Made by a program: the position numbers and the translations under genes. Below are positions 21,464-59,171 of a stretch of DNA of 64,000 nt, one piece after another (within the stretch, counting starts at the first letter, position 1; each line of letters starts with the position of its first letter). The notes below the pieces were generated by a model. It searched no databases, was not told the origin of the DNA, and worked only from the letters and a program-made list of their open reading frames with translations. The DNA is from a virus. Location of the stretch: the IMG/VR virus record IMGVR_UViG_3300017757_000001. One strand, written 5' to 3'.

Positions 21464-24067
21464 TTATGCAGGAAATGTTGCTCCTGTTGGTAAAATATTG
21501 AAATCTAAGTAAATAAATTCAGCTGTTTTAGTAGGTTGTAAATAAATAGCACCTACTAATTGGTTTCTATCAATTACTTCTGGGCCATTGTTTGAAGAAT
21601 CCATTACAACTTTAAATGCATATAAACCTTGTCTTTGTTGTACTGATTCTAAATATGGATTTACTTGGCTTAAGAATTGATTTCTTGTTGCTGCTGTATT
21701 TTGCTCAAATACTAGATTATCAGATATTTGTGAAATATAAGATTTTAATTCTATTAATAATCTTCTTACATTTACTCTATCTAAAGCACTTGCTTTTGTT
21801 TGTAATGTTTTCTGACCAAATACTACTACTCCTTTTCCTGGGAATGTAGCTATTGGATTTACTTTACCTGTATAAAGCGAATCTCTTTGTGATTGAGTTA
21901 ATTTTCTTTCTGCTTGTAATACTGTACCTAAACCACCTCTATTAATTCCGGCAGGTGCGAACCAAGCTTCAGCTGCTTTGTCATTATACGCATATACACC
22001 CGGAATTAACGTAGAACCTGGTATCCATACTAAATGTCCTGTATCTGGTTCTGTAATTTGAACCCAAGGCCAATATGTTGAAGCATATGAATTATCTATT
22101 CCTGCTGCTTGTGCTGTAGTTAGTGTTACTGATGAACCATAACCTTGCATATCAATAATAGCAATACAATCTCCTCTTGATGAACAATTAGATATTAAAG
22201 TATTAATTGGAGTAGCATTAGTTCCAAACCCATGTATCAATCCTGGAACTGATATTAAATTATAATTATAATCATCTTTATTTGCTAATAAATTTAATGA
22301 ATCATTATAATCTGATCCTGATAAACCTTGGTTAAATTGGTTTTGAGCACCTGCCCCTGTCATGTTTTGGTAATATAAATCTCCTGCTTTAACAATATCC
22401 CCATCTGCATCTCCAAATGTTCCACTCATAGCAACTGGAATTGATGATGTAAATTCTGATTTTGCTAAACCATCATTATCAAAATAATTTGGTGTTTTAT
22501 ATAATACTTCTTTTACTCTTACATATCTTGAAGAATTTCTATAATTCCCAACATCTTGAATGTATGGTTCTGCCGTACCAGCACCCATTAATGTTTTTTT
22601 CATATCTCCAACAACTCTACCTATATAGTTTGATTGTTTTGGATCTAAAGAAACATTAGGGAAAGTTTCTAATACTGATTTATTCTTTTGGTTGTCATTA
22701 CCTTGTCTTATTATTAGTGAGAATACACCTTGAGCTGTATCTGGTGCTTGAATTTCCCATCTAAAATTATTTGCTGAACCACTTGATAAAGCTCCTTTAG
22801 CTGATTCTGGACTATTACTATTTAGTACTTTTCCTTCACCTAATGATTCTAATACAAATGCTACTTCATTATTTATTTGTCCTGCATTTAAAGTAACAGT
22901 TACATCTGTACCTAATGCAAAATCAGCTGCTTGTAATGTATAAGTTTGAGCAGTATCTAATCCAATTCCATCTGATGCAAATGATAAAACTTCACCTGCT
23001 GAATATCCTGCTCCTGGTACTGATACTGTTATACCACTTACAAAGGATTGTAACATTGTTGTTGTTATTTGAACTGTTGCATCACCTGTTCCTGCTGCTC
23101 CTGCAAATGCCCCATTCATATCTGCCTCTGTAAATGTTAATACATCACCTACTGCATATGTGCTGTTACCTCCTGCTAAAGAAGAAGCTGTACAACTAAC
23201 AACAACACCTGAAGCATCACATTCTAATATCCATGTAACACCTGTACCCGTACCTGTTGTTGAGGAAGCTGCTAATGCAGCTGATTGACCTGCTGCTGAA
23301 CTGTTATATCCTGTTGAAGTACCACCAATTGTTGATTGAACTGCTGAAGCCGATATATTACCATTATTTGTAGTTGTAATATTAGCATAAGCTTGACCAT
23401 TTACTGAAGCTGGTGTACCACCTGAAGCTGAAACATTTGTATAAACTCCTGTAGCCGAACCTGTTGCAATTGCAAGTACAGTACTAAGTCCACTTAATGA
23501 ACCACCTCCCCCAAGTGATTGTGAAGTAAATGTTAATACATCACCAATTTCAAATCCACTACCTGAATCTTGAGGTATAATAGATGCTACTGAAGAAGTA
23601 TTTGAAACTACTACATCAAATACTGGAACTGTTGCTGTTGCATCTGAATTAATTGGTGTAACTGCATATGAAGCATTTACTAAATCTGTAAAGCCAGTAT
23701 TAATAGATCCAGTCATATTAATTATATTTAATAATCCTGTTTCTAAATTGTTGTATACGTTTGATGAAGTTGCATTCGTAAATGAACCACTTACTACTCT
23801 TGTTACTAATAATGAAGTTCCACCATTAGCGAAATAGTTATTTGCTGAGATTGAAGTGAAGAAAGAATATGAATCTGAACCACTTAAGAAAGAACTACCA
23901 AAAGTTGCTAGATACTCACTGTAACTAGTAACTAAAGTTGGTACATTTACTGGTCCTAATACTGTTGGTCCTACTATAGCGCCTCCTGCTTGTACAGGTT
24001 GTGACGTTATTTGGGATTGATCATTTTCTCTTGCTAATACTCCAGGGGAAATTAATGTTTCTGCCAT
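21464..24067 (-). CDS. gp18: Tail sheath protein (T4 gp18-like) with a large Gly/Ser/Thr-rich insertion
   Basis: SPGVLAREND N-terminus; WFAPAGINRG, VNPIATFPG, GQKTLQ, DRVNVRRLL, PTKTAEFI. Confidence 0.95.
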   Translation of the reverse strand: MAETLISPGVLARENDQSQITSQPVQAGGAIVGPTVLGPVNVPTLVTSYSEYLATFGSSFLSGSDSYSFFTSISANNYFANGGTSLLVTRVVSGSFTNATSSNVYNNLETGLLNIINMTGSINTGFTDLVNASYAVTPINSDATATVPVFDVVVSNTSSVASIIPQDSGSGFEIGDVLTFTSQSLGGGGSLSGLSTVLAIATGSATGVYTNVSASGGTPASVNGQAYANITTTNNGNISASAVQSTIGGTSTGYNSSAAGQSAALAASSTTGTGTGVTWILECDASGVVVSCTASSLAGGNSTYAVGDVLTFTEADMNGAFAGAAGTGDATVQITTTMLQSFVSGITVSVPGAGYSAGEVLSFASDGIGLDTAQTYTLQAADFALGTDVTVTLNAGQINNEVAFVLESLGEGKVLNSNSPESAKGALSSGSANNFRWEIQAPDTAQGVFSLIIRQGNDNQKNKSVLETFPNVSLDPKQSNYIGRVVGDMKKTLMGAGTAEPYIQDVGNYRNSSRYVRVKEVLYKTPNYFDNDGLAKSEFTSSIPVAMSGTFGDADGDIVKAGDLYYQNMTGAGAQNQFNQGLSGSDYNDSLNLLANKDDYNYNLISVPGLIHGFGTNATPINTLISNCSSRGDCIAIIDMQGYGSSVTLTTAQAAGIDNSYASTYWPWVQITEPDTGHLVWIPGSTLIPGVYAYNDKAAEAWFAPAGINRGGLGTVLQAERKLTQSQRDSLYTGKVNPIATFPGKGVVVFGQKTLQTKASALDRVNVRRLLIELKSYISQISDNLVFEQNTAATRNQFLSQVNPYLESVQQRQGLYAFKVVMDSSNNGPEVIDRNQLVGAIYLQPTKTAEFIYLDFNILPTGATFPA

Positions 24068-42340: not shown

Positions 42341-44353
42341 TTAGATAGTGTTTAAACCACTTACCATAATCTTACCATAGAATTCTGGTCTAACCATTTT
42401 CTTCGCGTATCTAGTCAATAGACCTTTACGTGGAACAAAAGTGTTTGGATCATAAACCATTGGAGTCATGATTAATGGAATATACGGAGCAAATACAGCA
42501 CCAGCTTCTAAGAACTGACCACCTCTATATCCCATAAGAATTGTATTCTCTGTCATATAAGGGTTTTTGTAAACTGTATATCTAGAATTCATTTGTCCAG
42601 CTTTTTGTACTCCAAATGCATAAGACGCTTTTGAAGTGTCTCCATCTGAATTACTTGCAAATCCTGGAATTGATTCTAAAATAGTACCAACTGAAGGAGA
42701 GCAAACTAAGAAATTAGCACCACCTCTAAGAGTTCTTTGGTGAATAATATTACTTAATTTTTGCATCTTTGTTCCTAAAGTTTGGAACCATTGTCCTTGT
42801 GAGTTATAAAATCCTAAATCAGAATTTACAACACCACCTGCAGAAATTGCTAAATTGTTTTCTGCTGACCAGTACTCAGTACCTGCCGCTGCATCTTCAA
42901 TTAGCATTCCAAGAATTTCTAAATCAATTTCAAGTGAAATATACTCACTCATAATTGAAGTTAATTCAGCTTCTGCATCTAAAGAATGATAAGCATTTAA
43001 ATCTTGAGCAAACTCAGGAGTCCAAACAGCTTTCAATTTTTTAGTTTTAGCAACAATAGCTTCACTTGACATTTTAACATCAATTTCTGGAATGTCAAAC
43101 GTTGCGTTTGCATTGTCTCCATTTAAATTGGTGTTATCCCATTCGAAGTCACCTCTGTTGTTATCAGTTGGAGCTAGTACTTGAGATATTCTAACACCTG
43201 TTCCACCTACAAAGTTTCCTGCATTAAGTACGAATTGGATAAATGTACCTACTTCAGTAACACCTTGAATAGTGTAAACTAATGAAGCATAAGCAGCATT
43301 AGCACCAATAACAGGTAAAGAAGCTTTAGGGAATGTAATAGCATCACCAACTTTAAATCCAGCACCTGGATTAGTAGCAGTAATAGTTACACCTGCAGCT
43401 AAGTTAGCACCTGCAGCAACTACTGTAAATACAGCACCTGTTCCAGTACCATTTGTAGTCCAAGTAGAAACACCTGCATCAGTTCCTGCAACAGTAGTAC
43501 CACCACCAGTTACAGATCCTGCACCACCTAATCCAGCAATACCTAGGTCTAAACCTATTCTTAATCCATCAGTAGTTACTTTTGTAAATGCTGGGTATTG
43601 GTTAGCACCAACATCACCTAATCCTGTGTTTGCTGCACCACCTGCATCACCTGCTAAAGCTGGCTTCAAGTAGAAAGCTGAAACCGCTGTTGGGTCCCAA
43701 ATACCTGCACCTGCTGCATCTTGAGCTAAGTTAGTAGTTAAAGTTTGAGCTAATTGTAAGTTACCTGCTAAAAATGAAGCTGAAACAGCACCATCTGCAT
43801 TACAATCTCTAAACCAATCAACATTACCTGCTGTCATTCCAGCTTGAGTAAATGACTCAGTATCTTGTGTTGAATATGAAAATCTACCTGCACCATAAAG
43901 ACCACCTTTTGCAGCATTACCAAAAGTATTTGCTGGATCAGTGTCACCATAAAGTGAAGTATTTTGTGCAAATGGAGTCTTAGCAGTTCCGTATTGGAAA
44001 TCTAAGAAAAATACTAGACCAGAAGGTAAGTTCATTGGTTGAACCGAAACAAATTCTTTTGCTGCGATTTGACCAAATACTTTTCTTACCAATGGTAAAG
44101 CAACTCCTGCCCATTGTGCACCTCTACCAGGAGAGAAAGTACCAGATCCAGCACCACCACCTGTGTTACTGTCCTCTGTTACTAATTGTTTAGCTTGATT
44201 TTCTAAGATCATAGACATATTATTTTTGTCTGTCTCAGAAGCTAAACCTTCAAGTAGGCCTGTTTTGCCCCACTTGGACGCTAACCTTGCAGCATCACTT
44301 TGTAGTGACTTGTAAGGATTTGCGGATTCTAAAAGTGAATTTAATTGACTCAT
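42341..44353 (-). CDS. gp23: Major capsid protein (T4 gp23-like) with a large internal insertion
   Basis: KWGKTGLLEG, LENQA, VSVQPMNLPSGLVF, KKLKAVWTPEFAQDLNAYH, EIDLEI, APYIPL, GLLTRYA; 670 aa. Confidence 0.96.
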   Translation of the reverse strand: MSQLNSLLESANPYKSLQSDAARLASKWGKTGLLEGLASETDKNNMSMILENQAKQLVTEDSNTGGGAGSGTFSPGRGAQWAGVALPLVRKVFGQIAAKEFVSVQPMNLPSGLVFFLDFQYGTAKTPFAQNTSLYGDTDPANTFGNAAKGGLYGAGRFSYSTQDTESFTQAGMTAGNVDWFRDCNADGAVSASFLAGNLQLAQTLTTNLAQDAAGAGIWDPTAVSAFYLKPALAGDAGGAANTGLGDVGANQYPAFTKVTTDGLRIGLDLGIAGLGGAGSVTGGGTTVAGTDAGVSTWTTNGTGTGAVFTVVAAGANLAAGVTITATNPGAGFKVGDAITFPKASLPVIGANAAYASLVYTIQGVTEVGTFIQFVLNAGNFVGGTGVRISQVLAPTDNNRGDFEWDNTNLNGDNANATFDIPEIDVKMSSEAIVAKTKKLKAVWTPEFAQDLNAYHSLDAEAELTSIMSEYISLEIDLEILGMLIEDAAAGTEYWSAENNLAISAGGVVNSDLGFYNSQGQWFQTLGTKMQKLSNIIHQRTLRGGANFLVCSPSVGTILESIPGFASNSDGDTSKASYAFGVQKAGQMNSRYTVYKNPYMTENTILMGYRGGQFLEAGAVFAPYIPLIMTPMVYDPNTFVPRKGLLTRYAKKMVRPEFYGKIMVSGLNTI

Positions 44354-49253: not shown

Positions 49254-51158
49254 TTATTCCTTTATATTTGATTCATCTAATAATGAGTCTTCTTTCCCTT
49301 TTTGTTCAAATACCATTTGTTTTTTAGTAGGTATTGAATCTAATACTTTTTTATTAGTTAAAAAATGAGTATTTCCTTCAAGAGCTAGAGGTGATTTATT
49401 AGTATCATTTACATCTTTTTTCATACCAGATGCTCCTAATCTATCTTTTCCAAAATTATCATCTTGACTATTTCTTTTCGATACTTTTTCTTGTGGTCGT
49501 CCTAATGGATTTTTATCTTTATCTTTATCATAACCAGGAGGTACATTTGATGGATCTGAGTACATTCTTCCTTTACCATAAAGTGAAGCTAAATCATGAG
49601 GAGTACCATATGATTCTCCTGTTTCTACAGGATCATTTCCTTCTGCTTCTAATTGTGCTAATCTAAATTTACGTTTAGCATCTTCTCTAATTAAATCTCT
49701 ATACTCATCAAATTGATCTTCACTTAAATGGAATATATTTTCATAAATCCAATCTGTTGGTAATAACGCTCCATCCTTCATTTGATTAGCTAATTCTACT
49801 TTTTCTTTTAACAATGCTATTTTTTCTTGATCATATATGATTGAAGGAGTTGTTAAATTTAATTCAAAATTTCCTAATTGTTCATCTCTATAACCTTGAG
49901 TATATAAATGAACTAATGCTATTTTATATAGTTCTGAAACTACAATTCTTTGGATACGTTCAATAGTACGTGCAAATCTAATATCTTGGGCTGCTAATGT
50001 AGCTTTACCATCAGTATTTTCATCATACCCCATAAATGCTTTTGGAACTTTTAAAGCAGCAAATAATTTATCTCTTAAATATTCAACATCTTCAATTCCA
50101 TCCCACTGTAAACCATTTAAATTTTCTATCTTAGTAGCATTATCATTTCCTCTTACAGGTATATAAAAATCTTCTAATATATTTTGTAAATTGTATTTAA
50201 GATTATATTCTCCTGTTTGTTCATCCATAAATGGAGTACGCTTTAGTTTACCTAATGTTTTTTCCATAAATGCATCTACTTCATTAGGTGGAATTGATCC
50301 TACATTCATATAAAATATACGTTTTTCAGGAGCACGAACAATTCTATGAATTAACATAGCATCTTCCATTAGAATATATTGTTTAAATAATTTTCTAGCT
50401 GGTTCTATGTAAGATCTACCATAAGGCATAAAATTAATGTCTGTTAATAATCTAAAGTGAGCCATCTCATAATTATCAAATATAATATCACTTCCATTAG
50501 CAAATGCTTGATTAGGTACATTGTAATACCCATAATCGGATGCTGCTATACCATCTGGAGAGTATCTAAATCTAATACTTTGATCAAATTTTGTTGGGTC
50601 TTGATCTTCAGGCATCATTCCCTCTAATCTTTCGATATGAAATGCTGTGTAAGGAATAACATTGTATACTCCAAATTTTTCAGCAATTTCTAATTTTAAG
50701 AAAAAATCACCATATTTACACATATTTCTAACCCAAGGCCAAAGATTAAATTCTACATTTAAAACATCATAAAATAAATTATATAGGATTTTTTGAATAT
50801 CTTCATCTGGTGATTTTATAGAAATAACTTCACCCATATCATTTTTAAGGGTAGATTCATCAGCAACTATATCTAGGGCAGAAGCTATAATAGCATCAGT
50901 ATCCATTGCATCATAATCTGAATATAACTGTGGTCTTAATGTTTGATAATTTATGGCATTCTGTTGACCATATAATGAAGTTGTTGTAGTAGTAAAAATT
51001 CTATTAAATCTATCTATTAAAGAGTTTGTTTCAATATCTCCAGATTGTTGAATTTTATTTACATCAAAAACTTTTAATTGATTACCACCAACATTCTGAA
51101 TAATTACATCAGTTGAAAATAATCTTTTTAATCTTGAAAATAAATTTGTATTTGCCAT
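49254..51158 (-). CDS. gp20: Portal protein (T4 gp20-like)
   Basis: LMEDAMLIHRIVRAPEKRIFY, EDFYIPVRG, IEDVEYLRDKLFAALKVPK, DIRFARTIERIQ. Confidence 0.96.
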   Translation of the reverse strand: MANTNLFSRLKRLFSTDVIIQNVGGNQLKVFDVNKIQQSGDIETNSLIDRFNRIFTTTTTSLYGQQNAINYQTLRPQLYSDYDAMDTDAIIASALDIVADESTLKNDMGEVISIKSPDEDIQKILYNLFYDVLNVEFNLWPWVRNMCKYGDFFLKLEIAEKFGVYNVIPYTAFHIERLEGMMPEDQDPTKFDQSIRFRYSPDGIAASDYGYYNVPNQAFANGSDIIFDNYEMAHFRLLTDINFMPYGRSYIEPARKLFKQYILMEDAMLIHRIVRAPEKRIFYMNVGSIPPNEVDAFMEKTLGKLKRTPFMDEQTGEYNLKYNLQNILEDFYIPVRGNDNATKIENLNGLQWDGIEDVEYLRDKLFAALKVPKAFMGYDENTDGKATLAAQDIRFARTIERIQRIVVSELYKIALVHLYTQGYRDEQLGNFELNLTTPSIIYDQEKIALLKEKVELANQMKDGALLPTDWIYENIFHLSEDQFDEYRDLIREDAKRKFRLAQLEAEGNDPVETGESYGTPHDLASLYGKGRMYSDPSNVPPGYDKDKDKNPLGRPQEKVSKRNSQDDNFGKDRLGASGMKKDVNDTNKSPLALEGNTHFLTNKKVLDSIPTKKQMVFEQKGKEDSLLDESNIKE

Positions 51159-51171
51159 ATTATTTTATTGT

Positions 51172-51180
51172 TATAAATAT
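51172..51180 (-). promoter_or_regulatory. Putative late promoter ATATTTATA
   Basis: Exact motif 14 nt upstream of the portal ATG. Confidence 0.65.
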
Positions 51181-52751
51181 TATAATAACCAGTCTATGTT
51201 CTCTTTTTTCCCATTTACTTCCATATTATATGGGTTTTGAACATTATTGGCACTATATCCACCACTATATTGTACTTTATTACTTTTTACACTACCTAAT
51301 GCCGCCCTAGCCATGTCTAAACTTTGTTGTTGAAATTTTAAAGAAGTATCACGTAGAAACATACCAATTCCAAATGACATAACCAAATCATCATTATAAC
51401 CACTTTGAGCTTCTGGTCTGCCATTTTTCCAAATAAATACTTTCATTTCTTCTATTAAACGCTTTGAACGAATAACTACAGACTTATCACCAACAAATTC
51501 TCTAAATTTATTAATACAAAGAGGTCTTGTTCTCATTGACATAGTAAATCCAGGAACCATTTCAGCATTACCTTCATATACTCTTAAATAAGATTCTGCT
51601 GTTAATTGATCAGATTTGGGGGATTGGTATAAATTTTTATATCCTCTTTCTTGTATAGCATCTAATGTAGCCCATCCAATATTTGCATTTTCTACTACTA
51701 ACATTGCATTATTATATTCTGTAGCTAAACCAGTTAAAAAATAGCCAAATTCTTTTGGGGGTAATTGACCTCTATATTCTGCTACTTGTGTATTAGTTGC
51801 AATATCAATAACATGACATGCTGAATAATCTTTTCCATCACCTCTAGCAACATCAGCTGATATCATATACTCTCTAGAGTAATCAGCTGATTCCCACACC
51901 CATAAATTTTGATCAGCTCCTCTTCTTTCTAGTGGATTTTGTACTGTAGATTGTTCTAAAAACTCAATCCATTCAGAATAAAATACTATATCACCTGATG
52001 TACTAAAATCACAATCACACTCTTGAGATGCTAATCTAGGATCACCTAATAATTCATCTTGTCTATTTCTCCATGTTTGATCTCTTTCTGGATGAACACT
52101 CCAAGGTAATCTTATAGGTAAAAAATCATTTTCATTATTTTCAGCTGATACCCAGGTTTTATGAAACCAATTTCCAGTACCATATGGGGTACTTAAAACA
52201 ATAGCTCCACCTCCAGTTGCTAAAGTTTGTTGTGATGATGCCCAAATTTCTCCAATATTATCAATAAAGGCTGCCTCATCAATTAATAATAAAGATACTG
52301 CTTCTGATCTACCAGCATCGCTACTTGCTGATGTTGCTTTAATTATTGAACCGTTACTTAATCTTAAACTTAATTTGTTATTTTCTTCAGCTGTTATTTT
52401 TAACCATGAAGGTAAATTATCATACATAAATTTTACCTTTGTAACCATATTACGTGCTGTTTCTTGTTTGGTTGCAATACATAATACATTTTTATCTTTA
52501 TGAAATAACATTAACCATAAAGAATAACCTGCTGTTAATGTAGATATACCTAATTGCCTTGATTTTAAGATAATTGAATATGGATTATCTTGCATTAAAT
52601 GCAATACTTTTTCTTGGAAAGGATATAAATTAAATAATATTCTACCTCTTTGAGGATGTTGAATATTACAATACTTTTTCATAAAATGAACTGGGTCTTT
52701 AGCACATTTTAAGTATTCTTGTCTTATTATTTTTTTTAAATCCTGACTCAT
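51180..52751 (-). CDS. gp17: Terminase large subunit (T4 gp17-like)
   Basis: KCAKDPVHF, LYPFQ, KSRQLGIS, LLIDEAAF, STPYG, ADVARGDGKDYS, NDDLVMS. Confidence 0.96.
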   Translation of the reverse strand: MSQDLKKIIRQEYLKCAKDPVHFMKKYCNIQHPQRGRILFNLYPFQEKVLHLMQDNPYSIILKSRQLGISTLTAGYSLWLMLFHKDKNVLCIATKQETARNMVTKVKFMYDNLPSWLKITAEENNKLSLRLSNGSIIKATSASSDAGRSEAVSLLLIDEAAFIDNIGEIWASSQQTLATGGGAIVLSTPYGTGNWFHKTWVSAENNENDFLPIRLPWSVHPERDQTWRNRQDELLGDPRLASQECDCDFSTSGDIVFYSEWIEFLEQSTVQNPLERRGADQNLWVWESADYSREYMISADVARGDGKDYSACHVIDIATNTQVAEYRGQLPPKEFGYFLTGLATEYNNAMLVVENANIGWATLDAIQERGYKNLYQSPKSDQLTAESYLRVYEGNAEMVPGFTMSMRTRPLCINKFREFVGDKSVVIRSKRLIEEMKVFIWKNGRPEAQSGYNDDLVMSFGIGMFLRDTSLKFQQQSLDMARAALGSVKSNKVQYSGGYSANNVQNPYNMEVNGKKENIDWLL

Positions 52752-54537: not shown

Positions 54538-54945
54538 TTAAAAAGGTAAATCCTCAGGATCTAATTGTGATGATCCTTTTCCTACCCTATAACTGTCACT
54601 ATCAAAATGTTGTGTTGATACTTCAAATATAGTAGCTCCTTCTTCAAGAGCCAACATTTGGTGAGGTTGTCCTGGCATTAAATGAATGCAATCCCCTTCT
54701 CTAACTATTCGGAAATTTATTTCTGCTGTTTCAGTATCAATCCAACCATATTGAAATTCACCTTTAGAAATATACCATGCTTCATCTTTTAGTAGATGGT
54801 AATGCATAGAGAATTTTTTATCCTTTTTAAATACTAATAACTTACCACAGTATTTTTCGTTATTAATAATCCATAATTCATGCCCCCAAGCTTTTTCATG
54901 AATTTCTCCTTTATAGGGCATTGCTTGTAATGTATGTTCTCTCAT
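54538..54945 (-). CDS. Cupin, sugar-phosphate isomerase-like (type II mannose-6-P isomerase C-domain)
   Basis: KAWGHE, YCGKLL, SMHYHLLKDEAW, PGQPH, EVST. Confidence 0.75.
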   Translation of the reverse strand: MREHTLQAMPYKGEIHEKAWGHELWIINNEKYCGKLLVFKKDKKFSMHYHLLKDEAWYISKGEFQYGWIDTETAEINFRIVREGDCIHLMPGQPHQMLALEEGATIFEVSTQHFDSDSYRVGKGSSQLDPEDLPF

Positions 54946-54946
54946 A

Positions 54947-55219
54947 CTAATTTCTATTTGTAACTCCTTTAGGAGAGGATTGTTTATACCAAGGTAATCC
55001 TTCTCTATTTTTCATAATATCTTGATAAGTTTCTAAATCATACTCAATTCCAGACAAAAAATATCCTTTTTTCCATTTACTATCTCTTCTAGTAGGTTCA
55101 ATAGCAGGTCCATCCCACCTATGATGGATATAATGTTCTGCTCCTTGATGTTTAATAAGATAATGTTTTGCTCCCTCGTTTGTAATTACTCTTTGCTCAT
55201 ATAATTTTTCGTCGCTCAT
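54947..55219 (-). CDS. Hypothetical protein with HRWDGPA motif
   Basis: 90 aa; HRWDGPAIE...YFLSG. Confidence 0.65.
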   Translation of the reverse strand: MSDEKLYEQRVITNEGAKHYLIKHQGAEHYIHHRWDGPAIEPTRRDSKWKKGYFLSGIEYDLETYQDIMKNREGLPWYKQSSPKGVTNRN

Positions 55220-55222
55220 AAT

Positions 55223-56650
55223 TTATATTTTATTTAGTTCTTCTTGTATTTGTTTTTCTAATAGTTCTACATTATTTTCTAAATCTTTTGCTTTTATTAT
55301 TTCACCATTAAGTAATTGCTCAGCTACTAGTGTTCCTTGTGCTCCTGATACTGTAATGCCTCTTGCACTTAAAGCATCACCTACAAAATGTACATTAGGG
55401 TATGTTGTTAAACTTAAATTATTATAATTTACTAATGGTTCAGGTGACAAATATTTTACTTCAGGTACATAAATCCCCCAATCATCTTTAAGTGTTGGAA
55501 ATACTTTTTTCATATCTTCAATAAAATCTTCTATATAATCATAATAACCTTGAAATGCATCTTTAACTTTATCTAATGATTTAATAGACATGGCATCAAC
55601 TTTTATACCTTCACTTGTCATTCCTGCTTCACGAGTAGGTGAATAATATAAACCCGTATGAGTTTTACGAGCATATCTACCTTGACCCTTACTATTATCA
55701 AACCATGTTTCATTCACAGCTTTAACTAATTCTCTTGACCAAGTAAAAGGTTCATCAATGCCTTGAATCTCCATTAAGATACCAAAATTAGTCATATTAT
55801 TTCTATGCTCTTCTCCTTTTTTAGCATGCCCATTGTAGCTAACATCTCCATACGTTTGCTCAACGGCAACATAAGCTGCGTTGTTGTTAGTACAGAATGA
55901 ACGTAATGATACTCCTTTGTCTTCGAATTTGCGATACAATTTAAAATCATAACTTACATCAATTAATTTTTGAAAGTGTTTTTGTGGTGCTTCAAATCTA
56001 ACACCTATTTGTACTGGTTTAGATTCAGTTGGAAGATCATATTCCTCTGCTAATTGTTTACCAAAATCAATACCACTTTTACCTACACCAAATATAAGTT
56101 TATCATACCTACGTTCATATTCTAAATCTTTAATTAATGATTTACCTAATACCCTTTCATTTACAAAATCAATAGCATGTACTTTAGTTTCCCATAAAAA
56201 TTCTACACCACCCTCTACTAAAAAGTCATACCAATTTTTACCTATTTCGTGTAAATAATCAGTACCAACGTGCCATACTGGGAATAATCTTAAACCAAAA
56301 TATGGTTTAATAAAATCTGGTTCTGCTATAGGATTTGAACATTGTACTTCTTCTGGTTTAGGGTGAAAGCGTTTAAAATTATTAATTACTTGATCAAATA
56401 ATTCCATTGCTTTTTCTTCACCTACATATTTACTTAAATGACCTCCAATTGATGTGTGGTATGTTAATTTACCATCAGACCAACCTCCAGCTCCTAAAAA
56501 GCCTGTCATTACTTCTTCATAAGGTCTTAAATATGGATCTTTACCCATATCAATAATGGTAATTTTACCATTAAATCCCTCATCAATTAATTTAGTAGCA
56601 GCATTTACATTTGCTACTCCTGCTCCAACCATTACTACATTTGTACTCAT
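55223..56650 (-). CDS. FAD-dependent oxidoreductase (uncharacterised COG2509-like)
   Basis: VGAGVA Rossmann motif, GFLGAGGWSDGKL, HVGTD, IGVRFE, RSFCTN, NGHA, TNFGIL, VGDALSARGITVS. Confidence 0.85.
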   Translation of the reverse strand: MSTNVVMVGAGVANVNAATKLIDEGFNGKITIIDMGKDPYLRPYEEVMTGFLGAGGWSDGKLTYHTSIGGHLSKYVGEEKAMELFDQVINNFKRFHPKPEEVQCSNPIAEPDFIKPYFGLRLFPVWHVGTDYLHEIGKNWYDFLVEGGVEFLWETKVHAIDFVNERVLGKSLIKDLEYERRYDKLIFGVGKSGIDFGKQLAEEYDLPTESKPVQIGVRFEAPQKHFQKLIDVSYDFKLYRKFEDKGVSLRSFCTNNNAAYVAVEQTYGDVSYNGHAKKGEEHRNNMTNFGILMEIQGIDEPFTWSRELVKAVNETWFDNSKGQGRYARKTHTGLYYSPTREAGMTSEGIKVDAMSIKSLDKVKDAFQGYYDYIEDFIEDMKKVFPTLKDDWGIYVPEVKYLSPEPLVNYNNLSLTTYPNVHFVGDALSARGITVSGAQGTLVAEQLLNGEIIKAKDLENNVELLEKQIQEELNKI

Positions 56651-56674
56651 TTTATCTTAAGTTTTATTGGTTAC

Positions 56675-56703
56675 AATATACGAAAACAAAATGTGACCTC
56701 CAA
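56675..56703 (-). promoter_or_regulatory. Host-sigma-type promoter TTTGG-N18-GTATATTG
   Basis: Minus strand TTGG-AGGTCACATTTTGTTTTC-GTATATTG. Confidence 0.75.
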
Positions 56704-56716
56704 ATTGGAGGCCACA
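56683..56716 (-). terminator. Rho-independent terminator overlapping the downstream promoter
   Basis: TGTGGCCTCCA-ATT-TGGAGGTCACA (one G-U pair) followed by TTTTGTTTT. Confidence 0.75.
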
Positions 56717-56765
56717 GATCTCTATTTATTTTGAAAAAACACCCGGCTATGAATCGAGCTATAAA

Positions 56766-56831
56766 TTAACAATTACAACATGAACAATCACATGATTTTC
56801 CACATTTACATTTTTGACAATTACATTCCAT
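56766..56831 (-). CDS. Metallothionein-like micro-protein (21 aa, 9 Cys)
   Basis: Not in the ORF track. Hand translation MECNCQKCKCGKSCDCSCCNC*, A-rich leader, 18 nt after the upstream stop codon. Confidence 0.75.
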   Translation of the reverse strand: MECNCQKCKCGKSCDCSCCNC

Positions 56832-56849
56832 TTTTATAATTTTTTATTA

Positions 56850-57695
56850 TTATCTACCATGTATCTTCCACCCATTATTACCCCCATTAACTGAACCAGC
56901 TGAAAAGGATGGTAAGGTTGAAACTAATCTAGTTCCTGTATAATCTACAGCCATATTATATACTGATATTCCTCCTCCAACAACTAAATCTATAACTGAT
57001 TTAGAAAATGGTTGACCAGTTGCTGGATTGGGAATGAATACACTTTTACATGGTAAACCTATATCATTAGCTAATTGGTCAAACCCTGCAGGATTTGTAT
57101 TATATACTAAAATATTACCATTATTTGAACCAAAATTTGTTGAACCTAATATTACAATACTCATTAGTTTAAAACCTGCTCCATTATTAACTCTATGCCA
57201 AACAAAATCTTGTTTATCATCAGTCCATTCATGTCCTCCTTCAACCTGAAAATTATAACCATAATAGGGTTGAGAACCTGTATTAACTGTAGCATGAGAG
57301 CCACTATGTATAATTGATGCTGAAACATTGTATTTACCATTAAAATATTTTGTTGATTCACTTACAGCACATGAATCTAAAGAATAAGCTCCAGCCATAG
57401 TGTCATTGTCATTTCTTCCAGCATATTTTAATGGTCCATCTTCAATAGTTGTCGACCCATTTCCAAATCCAAATGAATGACTAGTATTTAAGTAATCTGC
57501 CTCTACTTGTAAAGAACCCGAAAAATAAGTAAGTACACCTCCACTATTTACTTTTGATTCCCACCACGTACTAATAAAATTTTGACCATACCAAGTTGGA
57601 GTATTATTATGAAGAGGAGGTGTCCACCCATTATTAATCTGCCCTACACTATGTAAAAAGCTTGATGATTTTGAAGTTATAGGTGTTGTTGCCAT
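56850..57695 (-). CDS. Hypothetical beta-rich protein, probably virion-associated
   Basis: 281 aa rich in Gly/Ser/Asn with several SGS/SAS/TGS motifs; ATATTTATA at 57752-57760 upstream. Confidence 0.6.
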   Translation of the reverse strand: MATTPITSKSSSFLHSVGQINNGWTPPLHNNTPTWYGQNFISTWWESKVNSGGVLTYFSGSLQVEADYLNTSHSFGFGNGSTTIEDGPLKYAGRNDNDTMAGAYSLDSCAVSESTKYFNGKYNVSASIIHSGSHATVNTGSQPYYGYNFQVEGGHEWTDDKQDFVWHRVNNGAGFKLMSIVILGSTNFGSNNGNILVYNTNPAGFDQLANDIGLPCKSVFIPNPATGQPFSKSVIDLVVGGGISVYNMAVDYTGTRLVSTLPSFSAGSVNGGNNGWKIHGR

Positions 57696-57958
57696 ATTTT
57701 TAATTTTAATTTACCCGTTCCTTTAATGACACGATGCCATTGATGTCTTTTTATAAATATACGTTCGTTTAAGGAAGATGGTAATTTATTATCTAATTGT
57801 AACATCCAATCAGTTTTACCTATTATTTCAATAGATCTATCTTCATCATCACGATGCCAAAGTAATTCAATAGGATCTATATTTTCACTAAATTCTCTTA
57901 TAGTGTATTCTTTTGTAACCTCTAAGTCTTTATAAGGTTTTATTTTGTTTTCCCCCAT
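57677..57958 (-). CDS. Small cupin-like protein
   Basis: LLWHRDDEDR...WMLQLDN...WHRVIKG two-His cupin-type pattern. Confidence 0.6.
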   Translation of the reverse strand: MGENKIKPYKDLEVTKEYTIREFSENIDPIELLWHRDDEDRSIEIIGKTDWMLQLDNKLPSSLNERIFIKRHQWHRVIKGTGKLKLKIWQQHL

Positions 57959-58401
57959 TTTTTACCTTTACCTTTATCTTTACATTTAGAAGGAGTAGGT
58001 CTACAGGATGGATATTTTGCTCGTTTTTCACCTTCTTTTCTACCACAAGATTTATATTTCATCTTGCCTGTTTTTTTATCCTTTCTTCCAGTATTACAAT
58101 CAACCCATCCCCCTCCTTTACCTGGGGCTCCTTGTCTTTTAAACCATTTATTTAAGGATTCATCAACAACTTTTTGAAGTCTTTTATACCCTGAGCCATA
58201 AGGTGATGATTTTCCATCATGATTATCAACTACATTTTCTTTAACTCCCTTCCAGATATTTCCTTTTCTACACCTTACTACAGCACCTGATTTATAAGCA
58301 GAGGGTTTGTCAAATTTACGATCGGCGATACGTAAACATCTATCCCTTTTTTTCTTTTTTTCAAGAATTACTTCTCTTATTATGTTATTTAATCTACTCA
58401 T
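57940..58401 (-). CDS. Basic Cys-containing hypothetical protein; start probably ATG at 58401
   Basis: RDRC...PSAYKSGAVVRCRK and WVDC...CGR...YPSCRP modules separated by L/V-x-E sites. Confidence 0.65.
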   Translation of the reverse strand: MSRLNNIIREVILEKKKKRDRCLRIADRKFDKPSAYKSGAVVRCRKGNIWKGVKENVVDNHDGKSSPYGSGYKRLQKVVDESLNKWFKRQGAPGKGGGWVDCNTGRKDKKTGKMKYKSCGRKEGEKRAKYPSCRPTPSKCKDKGKGKKWGKTK

Positions 58402-59171
58402 TACCAAAAACCACTAAATGATGATTTTAATCCTAATAATTTAGCATATCTAGGAAGTCTACAACTCCAATACCCTGCTTTTGTTCTGTCTTTTTTCTGT
58501 GAACATTTATGTCTTTTAGCAAATGCAGAACGTGCTTTTGAGTCATTTATTTTTGCTCTTAAACCACCAGATCCAAATCTAACAGTTTTAACTTTTTTAG
58601 TTTTAGGATCTTTAACATATACTTTATAAGCTTTTCCACCTGAAGATGAGCGCATTGGTTTTCCTATTGGTCTATTGTCTTTTTTCTTAGCTTTTTTCTT
58701 TTTTGCTTCTATAATATTAACTATTCTTTCTTCAATAGATTCAAATTTCATATTATCCATTTCATCACGAACCCATTCTTTCTCATTATCACCTAATTGG
58801 TCATAATCCATTCCGAATTCCATATTCGCTAACTCATCTTCAAGATCCATTTGCTCATTTAATTCAATAGGAAAATCTAATGGTACTTTTTCACCTTCAA
58901 ACATACCATAATGTCCTAAATCAGTTTCTATAAGAATTTCTTTATCATCTCCTATTACTTCAAGTATTCCTCTACTATATAATGACCTTGCTTCTGCAAA
59001 TAAATTAAAGTATTCTTGTGAACCTGCCCTATATAAATGTTCAGTTAACGGTCTATTATTGTCCATATGGAATTTTAATCCTTCAGACAATATAGCCTTT
59101 GGAGCTTTATTTTCATTAAGTACTAACGCAGTACTTTTAGTTTTACATGAGCCGCATCCACATTTACACAT
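58401..59171 (-). CDS. Modular hypothetical protein: Cys-rich N-terminus, acidic middle, basic C-terminal domain
   Basis: MCKCGCGSCK; KAYKVYVKDPKTKKVKTVRFG...AFAKRHKC...AGYWSC. Confidence 0.7.
   Translation of the reverse strand: MCKCGCGSCKTKSTALVLNENKAPKAILSEGLKFHMDNNRPLTEHLYRAGSQEYFNLFAEARSLYSRGILEVIGDDKEILIETDLGHYGMFEGEKVPLDFPIELNEQMDLEDELANMEFGMDYDQLGDNEKEWVRDEMDNMKFESIEERIVNIIEAKKKKAKKKDNRPIGKPMRSSSGGKAYKVYVKDPKTKKVKTVRFGSGGLRAKINDSKARSAFAKRHKCSQKKDRTKAGYWSCRLPRYAKLLGLKSSFSGFW

What the first reader, a model, noticed from the sequence alone, without database searches (positions are those of the whole stretch)
56766..56831. Hidden 21-aa, 9-cysteine metallothionein-like gene
Seen: ATG at 56831 to TAA at 56766 encodes MECNCQKCKCGKSCDCSCCNC, with CxC and CC motifs, small or Lys spacers and no aromatic or large aliphatic residues. 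It is on the same strand as its neighbours, has an A-rich leader and is followed by terminator-like stems. It is below the ORF-track cutoff. Established: a 9-Cys cluster binds three divalent metals in the beta domain of animal metallothioneins, whereas bacterial SmtA is ~56 aa and uses His. Inference: an ultra-minimal phage metal chelator (Zn/Cu/Cd buffering, or metal supply for phage enzymes).
Basis: partly seen in the sequence, partly recalled or inferred. Interest (0 to 1): 0.8.

Follow-up and report, generated by a model that had tools for sequence, protein, structure and literature searches.

The report
Tiny nine-cysteine peptide gene in marine phages
A 21-codon gene that no gene finder has called encodes a peptide with nine strictly conserved cysteines; it recurs in many uncultured marine phage contigs and looks like the shortest metallothionein-type metal-binding peptide yet seen, though metal binding is untested.

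Summary
In detail: window 56831..56766 (-) reads MECNCQKCKCGKSCDCSCCNC-stop. It is a real gene and not chance. It is the only short ORF in the window with 7 or more Cys, and 200 resampled windows never reached 9. They gave 255 occurrences, 195 distinct DNA versions and 173 distinct peptides, all built as Met, 0-3 residues, CxCxxCxCxxxCxCxCCxC, stop. A scan anchored on the C-terminal half alone recovered the unconstrained N-terminal Cys, at the same spacing, in 157 of 158 versions. Spacers vary but stay small or polar: 0 of 300 are F/W/Y/L/M in the unbiased set, and His and Arg are nearly absent. The start context matches the phage's long genes, and terminator-like hairpins are enriched downstream. 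Carriers include phages whose large terminase is only 26-33% identical. The peptide is absent from a 15-billion-protein collection and was not found in 400 other genomes sampled from the order of a Cryomorphaceae (Flavobacteriales) MAG. The metallothionein reading rests on composition and motifs only. Profile matches to plant metallothioneins are not significant, and metal binding could not be tested. A Cys-sensing attenuator and an obligate enzyme partnership were tested and are disfavoured. Verdict: a new, unannotated phage small-protein family, most likely a metal-thiolate peptide.

The parts
56766..56831 (-). 21-codon ORF plus TAA stop: MECNCQKCKCGKSCDCSCCNC. A member of a conserved phage peptide family with the framework Met, 0-3 residues, CxCxxCxCxxxCxCxCCxC, stop.
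   Evidence: sequence and translation; conservation in other contigs; not chance.
56832..56849 (-). 18-nt A/T-only leader between the stop of the 281-aa ORF and the ATG (TAATAAAAAATTATAAAA). It has A at -3 and A-rich -10 to -14, with no Shine-Dalgarno sequence. It contains two further in-frame TAA codons after the upstream gene's TAA.
   Evidence: (leader sequence); the family-wide start context (A at -3 in 82%, A 63-80% at -10..-14) matches that of the window's 44 long genes. PMC6847099: Bacteroidetes lack SD sequences, and A at -3 promotes initiation.
56682..56716 (-). Intrinsic-terminator-like hairpin (TGTGGCCTCC AAT TTGGAGGTCACA) followed by a T-run, beginning 49 nt after the peptide's stop and ending about 30 nt before the next gene's ATG (56650).
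   Evidence: such hairpins occur within 150 nt downstream in 54/196 family loci against 9/487 control windows, and the stems differ by compensatory changes.

Best explanation
The ORF is a real, translated, free-standing small gene of a marine myovirus that probably infects Bacteroidota (Flavobacteriales-like hosts). It is transcribed with the upstream gene and closed by its own terminator. Its 21-residue product has nine invariant cysteines in a fixed CxC/CC framework, separated only by small, polar or charged residues. It most likely works as a metallothionein-type peptide: in the reducing cytoplasm of the infected cell the nine thiolates wrap one compact metal-thiolate cluster, either about three Zn(II)/Cd(II) as in a Cys9 beta-domain or several Cu(I). 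The peptide would thereby buffer, sequester or hand on metal during infection. Shown here: the gene exists, it is under purifying selection at the peptide level, its Cys framework is invariant across distant phage lineages, and it has gene-like start and stop signals. Inferred: translation itself, metal binding, which metal, the stoichiometry and the benefit to the phage.
For: Real gene: it is the only Cys-rich short ORF in the window, and 9 Cys was never reached in 200 resamples. Synteny-based search: 16 of 80 loci fetched through the downstream dehydrogenase hold a 20-22 aa ORF with the same framework on the same strand. In scans that did not require a stop, 32/32 ORFs end directly after the last Cys, and Met lies 1-3 residues before the first Cys in 243/255. 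Unbiased Cys test: anchoring on the C-terminal half only, 157/158 distinct versions keep the three N-terminal Cys at identical spacing. Coding signature: TGT and TGC are both used at all nine Cys codons, and third-position entropy exceeds first and second at most spacer codons. Peptide-level selection: 0/300 spacer residues are F/W/Y/L/M in the unbiased set, against 18.8% in the window's proteome. His is 1/300 and Arg is nearly absent. Gly is 71% and Ser 78% at two spacer positions. Start context equals that of the phage's own long genes and fits Bacteroidota initiation (PMC6847099). Terminators are enriched downstream. Breadth: carriers have TerL only 26-33% identical to the window's. The only families that surface at lenient thresholds are metallothioneins: Pfam Metallothio_2 in 19/80 members, and PDB 2KAK wheat Ec-1, where CxCxxxCxCxCCxC aligns to the plant CxCxxxCxCxxCxC motif. 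Established knowledge: metallothioneins are small Cys-rich proteins defined by composition and metal-thiolate clusters, not by common descent (PMC10612145 and my own knowledge of the Kagi/Binz criteria).
Against: There is no statistically significant similarity to any metallothionein family (best E 0.33, below Pfam's cut-off). No structure or metal-complex prediction was possible because the peptide is under the 30-aa minimum. There is no direct evidence of translation or of metal binding. Neighbouring genes give no metal-related context: no transporters, metalloregulators or chaperones. Nine Cys in 19 residues is denser than in any characterised Cys9 domain, to my knowledge, so the cluster geometry is a guess. 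The gene is accessory: only 15 of 63 close relatives with enough flank carry it.
Confidence: 0.5

Rival explanations
1. The peptide is a metal-structured (Zn-knuckle or Fe-S-like) or otherwise folded mini-protein. Its job would be to bind a host or phage macromolecule (host take-over factor, enzyme inhibitor, anti-defence factor or virion-internal component). Any metal would be structural and not cargo.
For: Peptide-level selection and an invariant Cys framework fit any metal-stabilised mini-fold equally well. Gly and Ser are conserved at two spacer positions, which suggests a defined turn. The gene sits just upstream of the packaging and head module (TerL, portal, major head), next to Lys-rich proteins of unknown function. 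The neighbouring 256-aa protein has a conserved 4-Cys N-terminal motif. Many phage small proteins are protein-binding inhibitors (established knowledge).
Against: The ten spacer positions are highly variable (173 distinct peptides, net charge from -4 to +4). That leaves little conserved surface for specific macromolecular recognition. No partner gene is conserved across contexts. CxC/CC-dominated frameworks are typical of thiolate clusters, not of CxxC zinc knuckles (established knowledge).
Confidence: 0.2
2. The peptide is a substrate: a precursor of a modified peptide (RiPP-like) or a thiol/disulfide redox peptide, acted on by the adjacent 475-aa FAD/NAD(P)-type oxidoreductase or another enzyme.
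For: The dehydrogenase homolog (phrog_12409; weak match to PDB 3NLC) is the most frequent downstream neighbour, directly downstream in 34/120 pattern-ascertained loci. Spacers are rich in Ser and Thr.
Against: The association is loose in both directions: 28% of peptide loci have the enzyme downstream, and only 15/63 enzyme loci have the peptide upstream. In the window a strong terminator separates the two genes. There is no leader region, with only 0-3 residues before the first Cys. No radical-SAM, lanthipeptide, cyclodehydratase or MNIO-type enzyme was found among recurrent neighbours. Carriers with 26-33% TerL identity have unrelated contexts.
Confidence: 0.12
3. The ORF is a regulatory leader. 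Ribosomes would stall at its nine Cys codons when Cys-tRNA is scarce, and that would control the downstream terminator or downstream gene expression. This resembles amino-acid attenuators and the mycobacterial polycysteine leader ORFs.
For: The layout is a short ORF dense in one codon type, about 49 nt of spacer, a strong terminator, then downstream genes. A cupin that matches a PHROG labelled 'cysteine dioxygenase' lies three genes downstream. There is precedent for Cys-responsive leader ORFs (bioRxiv 10.1101/834739).
Against: No anti-terminator: pairing of the ORF plus spacer with the terminator's 5' arm is no better than shuffled sequence (median z +0.66; 1 of 55 below -2; window -5.8 against -18.5 kcal/mol for the terminator). 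Only 28% of loci have a strict terminator. Downstream genes are diverse and not Cys-related; the cupin lies within 4 kb in only 8 loci. Spacer residues, exact spacing, length and the stop position are under peptide-level selection, which a codon-counting leader does not need. The ORF is the last gene of a transcription unit, not the first.
Confidence: 0.06
4. It is not a gene: a chance ORF, or a DNA-level repeat (TGTNNNTGT sites) that happens to be open.
For: It is very short and below all gene-caller cut-offs. The genome is AT-rich, so TGT is common. The peptide is absent from a 15-billion-protein collection.
Against: (chance), 21, 22 and 67: the start, the stop and all nine Cys codons are conserved in phase, with synonymous TGT/TGC variation, across 195 distinct DNA versions in phages with 26-33% TerL identity. 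Spacer composition is selected.
Confidence: 0.02

Closest known systems
Beta-domain of vertebrate metallothioneins (Cys9, M(II)3 cluster)
   Same: Nine Cys, CxC motifs, Lys/Ser/Thr/Asn/Asp/Gly spacers, no aromatics, no His. Nine thiolates are enough for a three-metal cluster (established knowledge).
   Different: The beta-domain spreads nine Cys over about 30 residues and is one half of a two-domain protein. Here nine Cys lie in 19 residues, include a CC pair, and the peptide stands alone. No detectable sequence relationship.
Fungal copper metallothioneins of the Neurospora crassa / Agaricus type (about 25 aa, 7 Cys, Cu(I) cluster); sizes from my own knowledge, not verified here
   Same: A single-domain, gene-encoded peptide of about 20-25 residues made of CxC motifs with Gly/Ser/Asn spacers. 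These are the shortest classical metallothioneins.
   Different: 7 Cys against 9, different spacing, eukaryotic and not phage-borne. The phage peptide is shorter (20-23 aa) and more Cys-dense (about 43%).
Plant metallothioneins (Pfam PF01439 Metallothio_2; wheat Ec-1, PDB 2KAK)
   Same: These are the only database families that surface. The C-terminal CxCxxxCxCxCCxC aligns with the plant CxCxxxCxCxxCxC motif.
   Different: Matches are not significant (E 0.33-7; 10 bits against a 23-bit cut-off). Plant proteins are 60-85 aa with long Cys-free linkers, and Ec-1 also uses His.
Bacterial metallothioneins SmtA/BmtA (about 56 aa, Zn4 Cys9His2, zinc-finger-like fold)
   Same: Prokaryote-world, small, Cys-rich zinc binders. 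Marine cyanobacteria carry them (PMC10612145, PMC3865332).
   Different: SmtA uses His ligands, has a folded zinc-finger core and contains aromatic residues. The phage peptide has essentially no His (1/300) and is less than half the length. No sequence match.
Polycysteine leader ORFs of mycobacteria (Cys-responsive attenuators; bioRxiv 10.1101/834739)
   Same: Unannotated, very short ORFs dense in Cys codons, upstream of other genes.
   Different: Those ORFs are the first gene of transcripts for cysteine-metabolism loci and act through ribosome stalling and RNA structure. Here downstream genes are diverse, no alternative RNA structure is present and the peptide sequence itself is constrained.

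Membership tests
Metallothionein (operational class) | Low molecular mass (well under 10 kDa) | tested here: met
   21 aa; family range 20-23 aa.
Metallothionein (operational class) | Very high Cys content arranged in CxC, CC and CxxC motifs | tested here: met
   9/21 residues (43%); four CxC, one CC, one CxxC. Invariant in 157/158 versions in the unbiased test.
Metallothionein (operational class) | Aromatic residues absent or scarce; spacers small or polar | tested here: met
   0/300 F/W/Y/L/M in the unbiased set against 18.8% in the phage proteome.
Metallothionein (operational class) | Binds d10 metal ions in metal-thiolate clusters with defined stoichiometry | not testable with these tools
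   The peptide is below the 30-aa minimum of the structure and complex predictors. This needs ESI-MS and UV/CD titration.
Any existing metallothionein sequence family (Pfam PF01439 and others) | Significant match to the family profile | tested here: not met
   Metallothio_2: 10 bits against a cut-off of 23, E 1.8 for the window peptide; best E 0.33 among 80 members. PDB profile search: only 2KAK at E 7.1.
SmtA/BmtA bacterial metallothionein | His ligands and a roughly 56-aa zinc-finger-like fold | tested here: not met
   His 1/300 spacer residues; length 21 aa; no profile match.
Amino-acid-sensing leader peptide / attenuator | Mutually exclusive terminator and anti-terminator (or RBS-sequestering) RNA structures coupled to the leader ORF | tested here: not met
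   Upstream-to-terminator-arm pairing is no better than shuffled (median z +0.66; 1/55 below -2).
Amino-acid-sensing leader peptide / attenuator | Controls genes for synthesis or uptake of the sensed amino acid | tested here: not met
   Downstream neighbours are diverse: dehydrogenase in 28%, the rest unrelated unknowns.
RiPP precursor | Leader region plus core, encoded beside a maturation enzyme | tested here: not met
   Only 0-3 residues precede the first Cys. No recognised maturase among recurrent neighbours. The oxidoreductase link is loose.

The most novel reading that the evidence does not exclude
This is the first phage-borne metallothionein family and the shortest gene-encoded metallothionein known (20-23 aa, nine Cys). 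It is spread across distantly related large marine phages of Bacteroidota and has gone unseen because it is below every gene-caller threshold. By chelating Zn or Cu in the infected cell it would reprogram host metal homeostasis, for example by derepressing uptake or by protecting or supplying phage metalloenzymes. That would make trace-metal economy a target of phage auxiliary genes in the ocean.
Probability: 0.45. Interest if true: 0.85.

Novelty: new variant of a known kind. Interest (0 to 1): 0.72.

Why it matters
If the peptide binds metal, it sets a new lower size limit for a gene-encoded metal-thiolate cluster: 19 residues carrying nine ligands, small enough to synthesise chemically. It would also add trace-metal handling to what marine phages do to their hosts, in waters where Zn, Cu and Cd are biologically limiting or toxic at picomolar levels. 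Whatever the function, this is a clean example of a strongly selected gene family that standard annotation misses completely. That supports systematic, conservation-based searches for ORFs under 30 codons in phage genomes. The 173 natural variants also form a ready-made mutational series for studying which spacer residues tune metal affinity.

Tried and rejected
1. The search for related loci with the upstream 281-aa protein found no relatives; that gene appears to be an insertion specific to this phage.
2. The first loose Cys-codon pattern was swamped by (TGY)n simple repeats in both viral and bacterial collections.
3. My refined pattern (VNN spacers) itself excluded T-initial codons, so the first composition result was partly built in. 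I redid it on unbiased sets.
4. The stop after the last Cys was forced, so that claim rests (32/32).
5. The search for homologous proteins refuses queries under 40 aa. Structure, complex and atlas tools need at least 30 aa, so no fold or metal-complex model was attempted.
6. tblastn and blastn of the peptide or ORF against GenBank phages gave nothing meaningful. The only cultured relative, Flavobacterium phage immuto, has no pattern match in its genome.
7. The attenuator model was tested and disfavoured. Obligate pairing with the FAD oxidoreductase was tested and disfavoured.
8. Annotation of ten recurrent neighbour clusters gave almost only unknowns, so context does not reveal function.
9. 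Literature searches found no report of this family. One preprint lists annotation-level metallothionein AMG candidates in fumarole viruses (PMC13317609), with no sign that they are this family.

Full report
OBSERVATION. On the minus strand, ATG at 56831 to TAA at 56766-56768 translates to MECNCQKCKCGKSCDCSCCNC. All neighbouring genes are on the same strand. The ORF begins 18 nt after the TAA of a 281-aa ORF (56850-57695). That 18-nt spacer is pure A/T and carries two more in-frame TAA codons. One strong terminator-like hairpin (56716..56692, 11 bp, followed by a T-run) lies 49 nt downstream of the stop, ahead of the next gene at 56650. I did not find a convincing second stem, so 'stems' is slightly overstated. 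The ORF is not chance. It is the only ATG-ORF of 10-40 aa in the window with 7 or more Cys. In 200 Markov resamples of the window the maximum was 8 Cys (in 2 resamples). The base-composition probability of 9 or more Cys codons in 20 is 3e-10.

WHAT GENOME THIS IS. The window carries a tail sheath (21464-24067), major head protein (42341-44353), portal (49254-51158) and large terminase (51180-52751), so it is a myovirus. No whole genome is held for it. The only DNA similarity to a cultured phage is a 450-nt stretch, 67% identical, to Flavobacterium phage vB_FspM_immuto (160 kb, Baltic Sea), covering the Lys-rich 155-aa gene. Start codons of the window's 44 long genes lack Shine-Dalgarno sequences and are A-rich at -10 to -14 and at -3. 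That fits Bacteroidota, which lack SD sequences and favour A at -3 (PMC6847099). The single bacterial-genome hit for the peptide is an 11-kb contig binned into a Cryomorphaceae (Flavobacteriales) MAG. A Bacteroidota host is therefore probable but not proven.

CONSERVATION. The downstream 475-aa protein has more than 580 relatives in IMG/VR. Among the 80 loci kept, a loose filter (12-60 aa, at least 5 Cys, at least 25% Cys) found a 20-22 aa ORF on the same strand in 14, and a motif regex raised this to 15 plus one cut at a contig end. Every one has the same framework. A degenerate codon pattern for the nine Cys then retrieved members independently of synteny. After removing (TGY)n repeats, 32 of 32 matches were free-standing ORFs ending exactly after the last Cys, although no stop had been required. 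In total there are 255 occurrences, 195 distinct DNA versions and 173 distinct peptides. Met lies 1-3 residues before the first Cys in 243 of 255. The stops are TAA 179 and TAG 16, with no TGA or TGG although the pattern allowed them. No locus has two copies.

CONTROLLING FOR ASCERTAINMENT. These patterns force the Cys codons, so I ran a scan anchored only on the C-terminal half (C-G-x-x-C-x-C-x-C-C-x-C-TAA). Of 158 distinct DNA versions, 157 have the unconstrained N-terminal CxCxxC at identical spacing. One has Cys2 replaced by Tyr. The refined pattern also excluded T-initial codons at seven spacer positions, so I recomputed spacer composition on sets free of that bias. In 30 distinct peptides found by synteny or by the NNN pattern, 0 of 300 spacer residues are F, W, Y, L or M, against 18.8% in the window's own proteins. 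At the three NNN positions of all 173 peptides, 4 of 519 are. His (1/300) and Arg are almost absent. Asn, Lys, Thr, Ser, Asp, Gly and Glu dominate. Gly (71%) and Ser (78%) are favoured at the two positions flanking the central gap. TGT and TGC alternate at all nine Cys codons, and third-position entropy exceeds first and second at most spacer codons. This is the signature of a translated sequence under purifying selection for peptide chemistry. A DNA repeat or a mere codon run would not show it.

EXPRESSION SIGNALS. Across 190 distinct versions, the 25 nt before the ATG show A at -3 (82%), at -6 (71%) and at -10 to -14 (63-80%), with G of 11% or less between -15 and -1. The window's long genes show the same profile. 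Terminator-like hairpins with perfect stems lie within 150 nt downstream in 54 of 196 loci, against 9 of 487 control windows. Related loci keep the hairpin through compensatory changes.

CONTEXT AND BREADTH. Neighbours are nearly always on the same strand. In window-like phages the order is 256-aa, 155-aa, 93-aa, peptide, 475-aa FAD/NAD-type oxidoreductase, 90-aa, then an AAA_28 kinase-like gene. In most relatives the 281-aa ORF is missing and the peptide follows the 93-aa gene. The link to the oxidoreductase is loose. It is directly downstream in 34 of 120 pattern-ascertained loci, and only 15 of 63 oxidoreductase loci with enough flank have the peptide upstream. About half of the loci share no window gene within 4 kb, and their recurrent neighbours are almost all of unknown function: one holin family, one sialyltransferase-like protein, one scaffold-like protein. 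Five long carrier contigs (92-210 kb, CheckV 27-66% complete, so probably jumbo phages) were searched. Four have a large terminase only 26-33% identical to the window's, and one had no match. The family therefore spans distant phage lineages. The pattern was found in 1 of 401 genomes of the order around the MAG, namely the MAG contig itself. It is absent from phage immuto. None of five family peptides exists in the 15-billion-protein collection, so the family has not been called as a gene in that collection.

WHAT IT IS LIKE. At lenient thresholds only metallothioneins appear. Pfam Metallothio_2 gives E 1.8 for the window peptide, and matches 19 of 80 members with best E 0.33 (10 bits against a cut-off of 23). 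Wheat Ec-1 (PDB 2KAK) gives E 7.1; there the C-terminal CxCxxxCxCxCCxC aligns with the plant CxCxxxCxCxxCxC motif. None of these matches is significant, so homology is not shown. Metallothioneins, however, are an operational class defined by size, Cys content, motifs, lack of aromatics and metal-thiolate clusters (PMC10612145; Kagi/Binz criteria from my own knowledge). The peptide meets every criterion that can be read from sequence. It differs from bacterial SmtA/BmtA, which are about 56 aa, use His and have a zinc-finger-like fold (PMC10612145). It is shorter and more Cys-dense than the roughly 25-aa, 7-Cys fungal copper metallothioneins (my own knowledge).

RIVALS. (a) Cys-sensing leader or attenuator, as in mycobacterial polycysteine ORFs (bioRxiv 10.1101/834739). 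The geometry (ORF, about 49 nt, terminator) allows it. Against it: no anti-terminator pairing exists (median z +0.66 against shuffles; 1 of 55 below -2; window -5.8 against -18.5 kcal/mol), downstream genes are not Cys-related, and peptide-level selection is unnecessary for a codon counter. (b) RiPP or redox substrate of the oxidoreductase. Against it: there is no leader region, the co-occurrence is loose, a terminator lies between the two genes, and no known maturase is nearby. (c) A metal-structured mini-protein that binds a macromolecule. This is not excluded and is the strongest rival; the very variable spacers and net charge (-4 to +4) argue against a specific interface. (d) Not a gene. 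This is effectively excluded.

MECHANISM PROPOSED. The gene is co-transcribed with the upstream gene and translated from an SD-less, A-rich leader. The reduced peptide uses nine thiolates to enclose one compact cluster: about three Zn(II)/Cd(II) by analogy with Cys9 beta-domains, or several Cu(I) by analogy with fungal peptides. The effect would be to buffer or sequester metal during infection. Everything after 'translated' is inference.

VERDICT. The gene is real, widespread and unannotated. The metallothionein-like function is the best-supported reading (about 0.5) but rests on composition alone. An earlier first-stage note flagged this same stretch in an overlapping window read of the same genome, and it agrees with this reading.

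Noticed in passing
window 58401-59171 (-): The 256-aa protein (its C-terminal part matches phrog_7595) starts MCKCGCGSCKTKS. Homologs next to the peptide gene in other contigs keep an N-terminal four-Cys motif (MCDCGCNTCET, MCQKCGCNTCET, MCNCGCNTCDT), while a 261-aa subgroup lacks it. This is a second conserved Cys-rich element two to three genes upstream of the peptide.
   Followed up: partly
window 56850-57695 (-): The 281-aa ORF directly upstream has no Pfam or PHROG match and no relative in IMG/VR. In most related contigs it is absent and the peptide gene follows the 93-aa gene homolog. It looks like a lineage-specific insertion. Its TAA is followed by two more in-frame TAA codons before the peptide's ATG.
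   Followed up: partly
window 55223-56650 (-): The 475-aa FAD/NAD(P)-binding oxidoreductase-like protein (phrog_12409 'dehydrogenase'; only the N-terminal Rossmann motif hits Pfam; weak match to PDB 3NLC, uncharacterised VP0956) has more than 580 relatives at 72-90% identity in marine viral contigs. It is a very common phage gene of unknown role.
   Followed up: partly
window 54538-54945 (-): A small cupin matches phrog_7851, labelled 'cysteine dioxygenase' (E 1e-38), and weakly matches WbuC-type cupins. It lies three genes downstream of the Cys-rich peptide but co-occurs within 4 kb in only 8 family loci.
   Followed up: partly
window 57940-58407 (-): The Lys-rich 155-aa protein (weak DUF5872 match) is the only stretch of the query 55200-58500 with DNA similarity to a cultured phage: 67% identity to a hypothetical gene of Flavobacterium phage immuto.
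   Followed up: no
L564 (IMG/VR contig): The single family variant with a broken framework has the second Cys replaced by Tyr (MKCNYKVCNCGTSCDCSCCNC). It could be a rare allele, a decaying copy or a sequencing error.
   Followed up: no
L339, L341, L131, L369, L379 (IMG/VR contigs of 92-210 kb): CheckV rates these peptide-carrying contigs only 27-66% complete, implying genomes of roughly 260-370 kb. Four of the five have a large terminase 26-33% identical to the window's, and L369 had no match. The peptide gene therefore also occurs in probable jumbo phages.
   Followed up: partly
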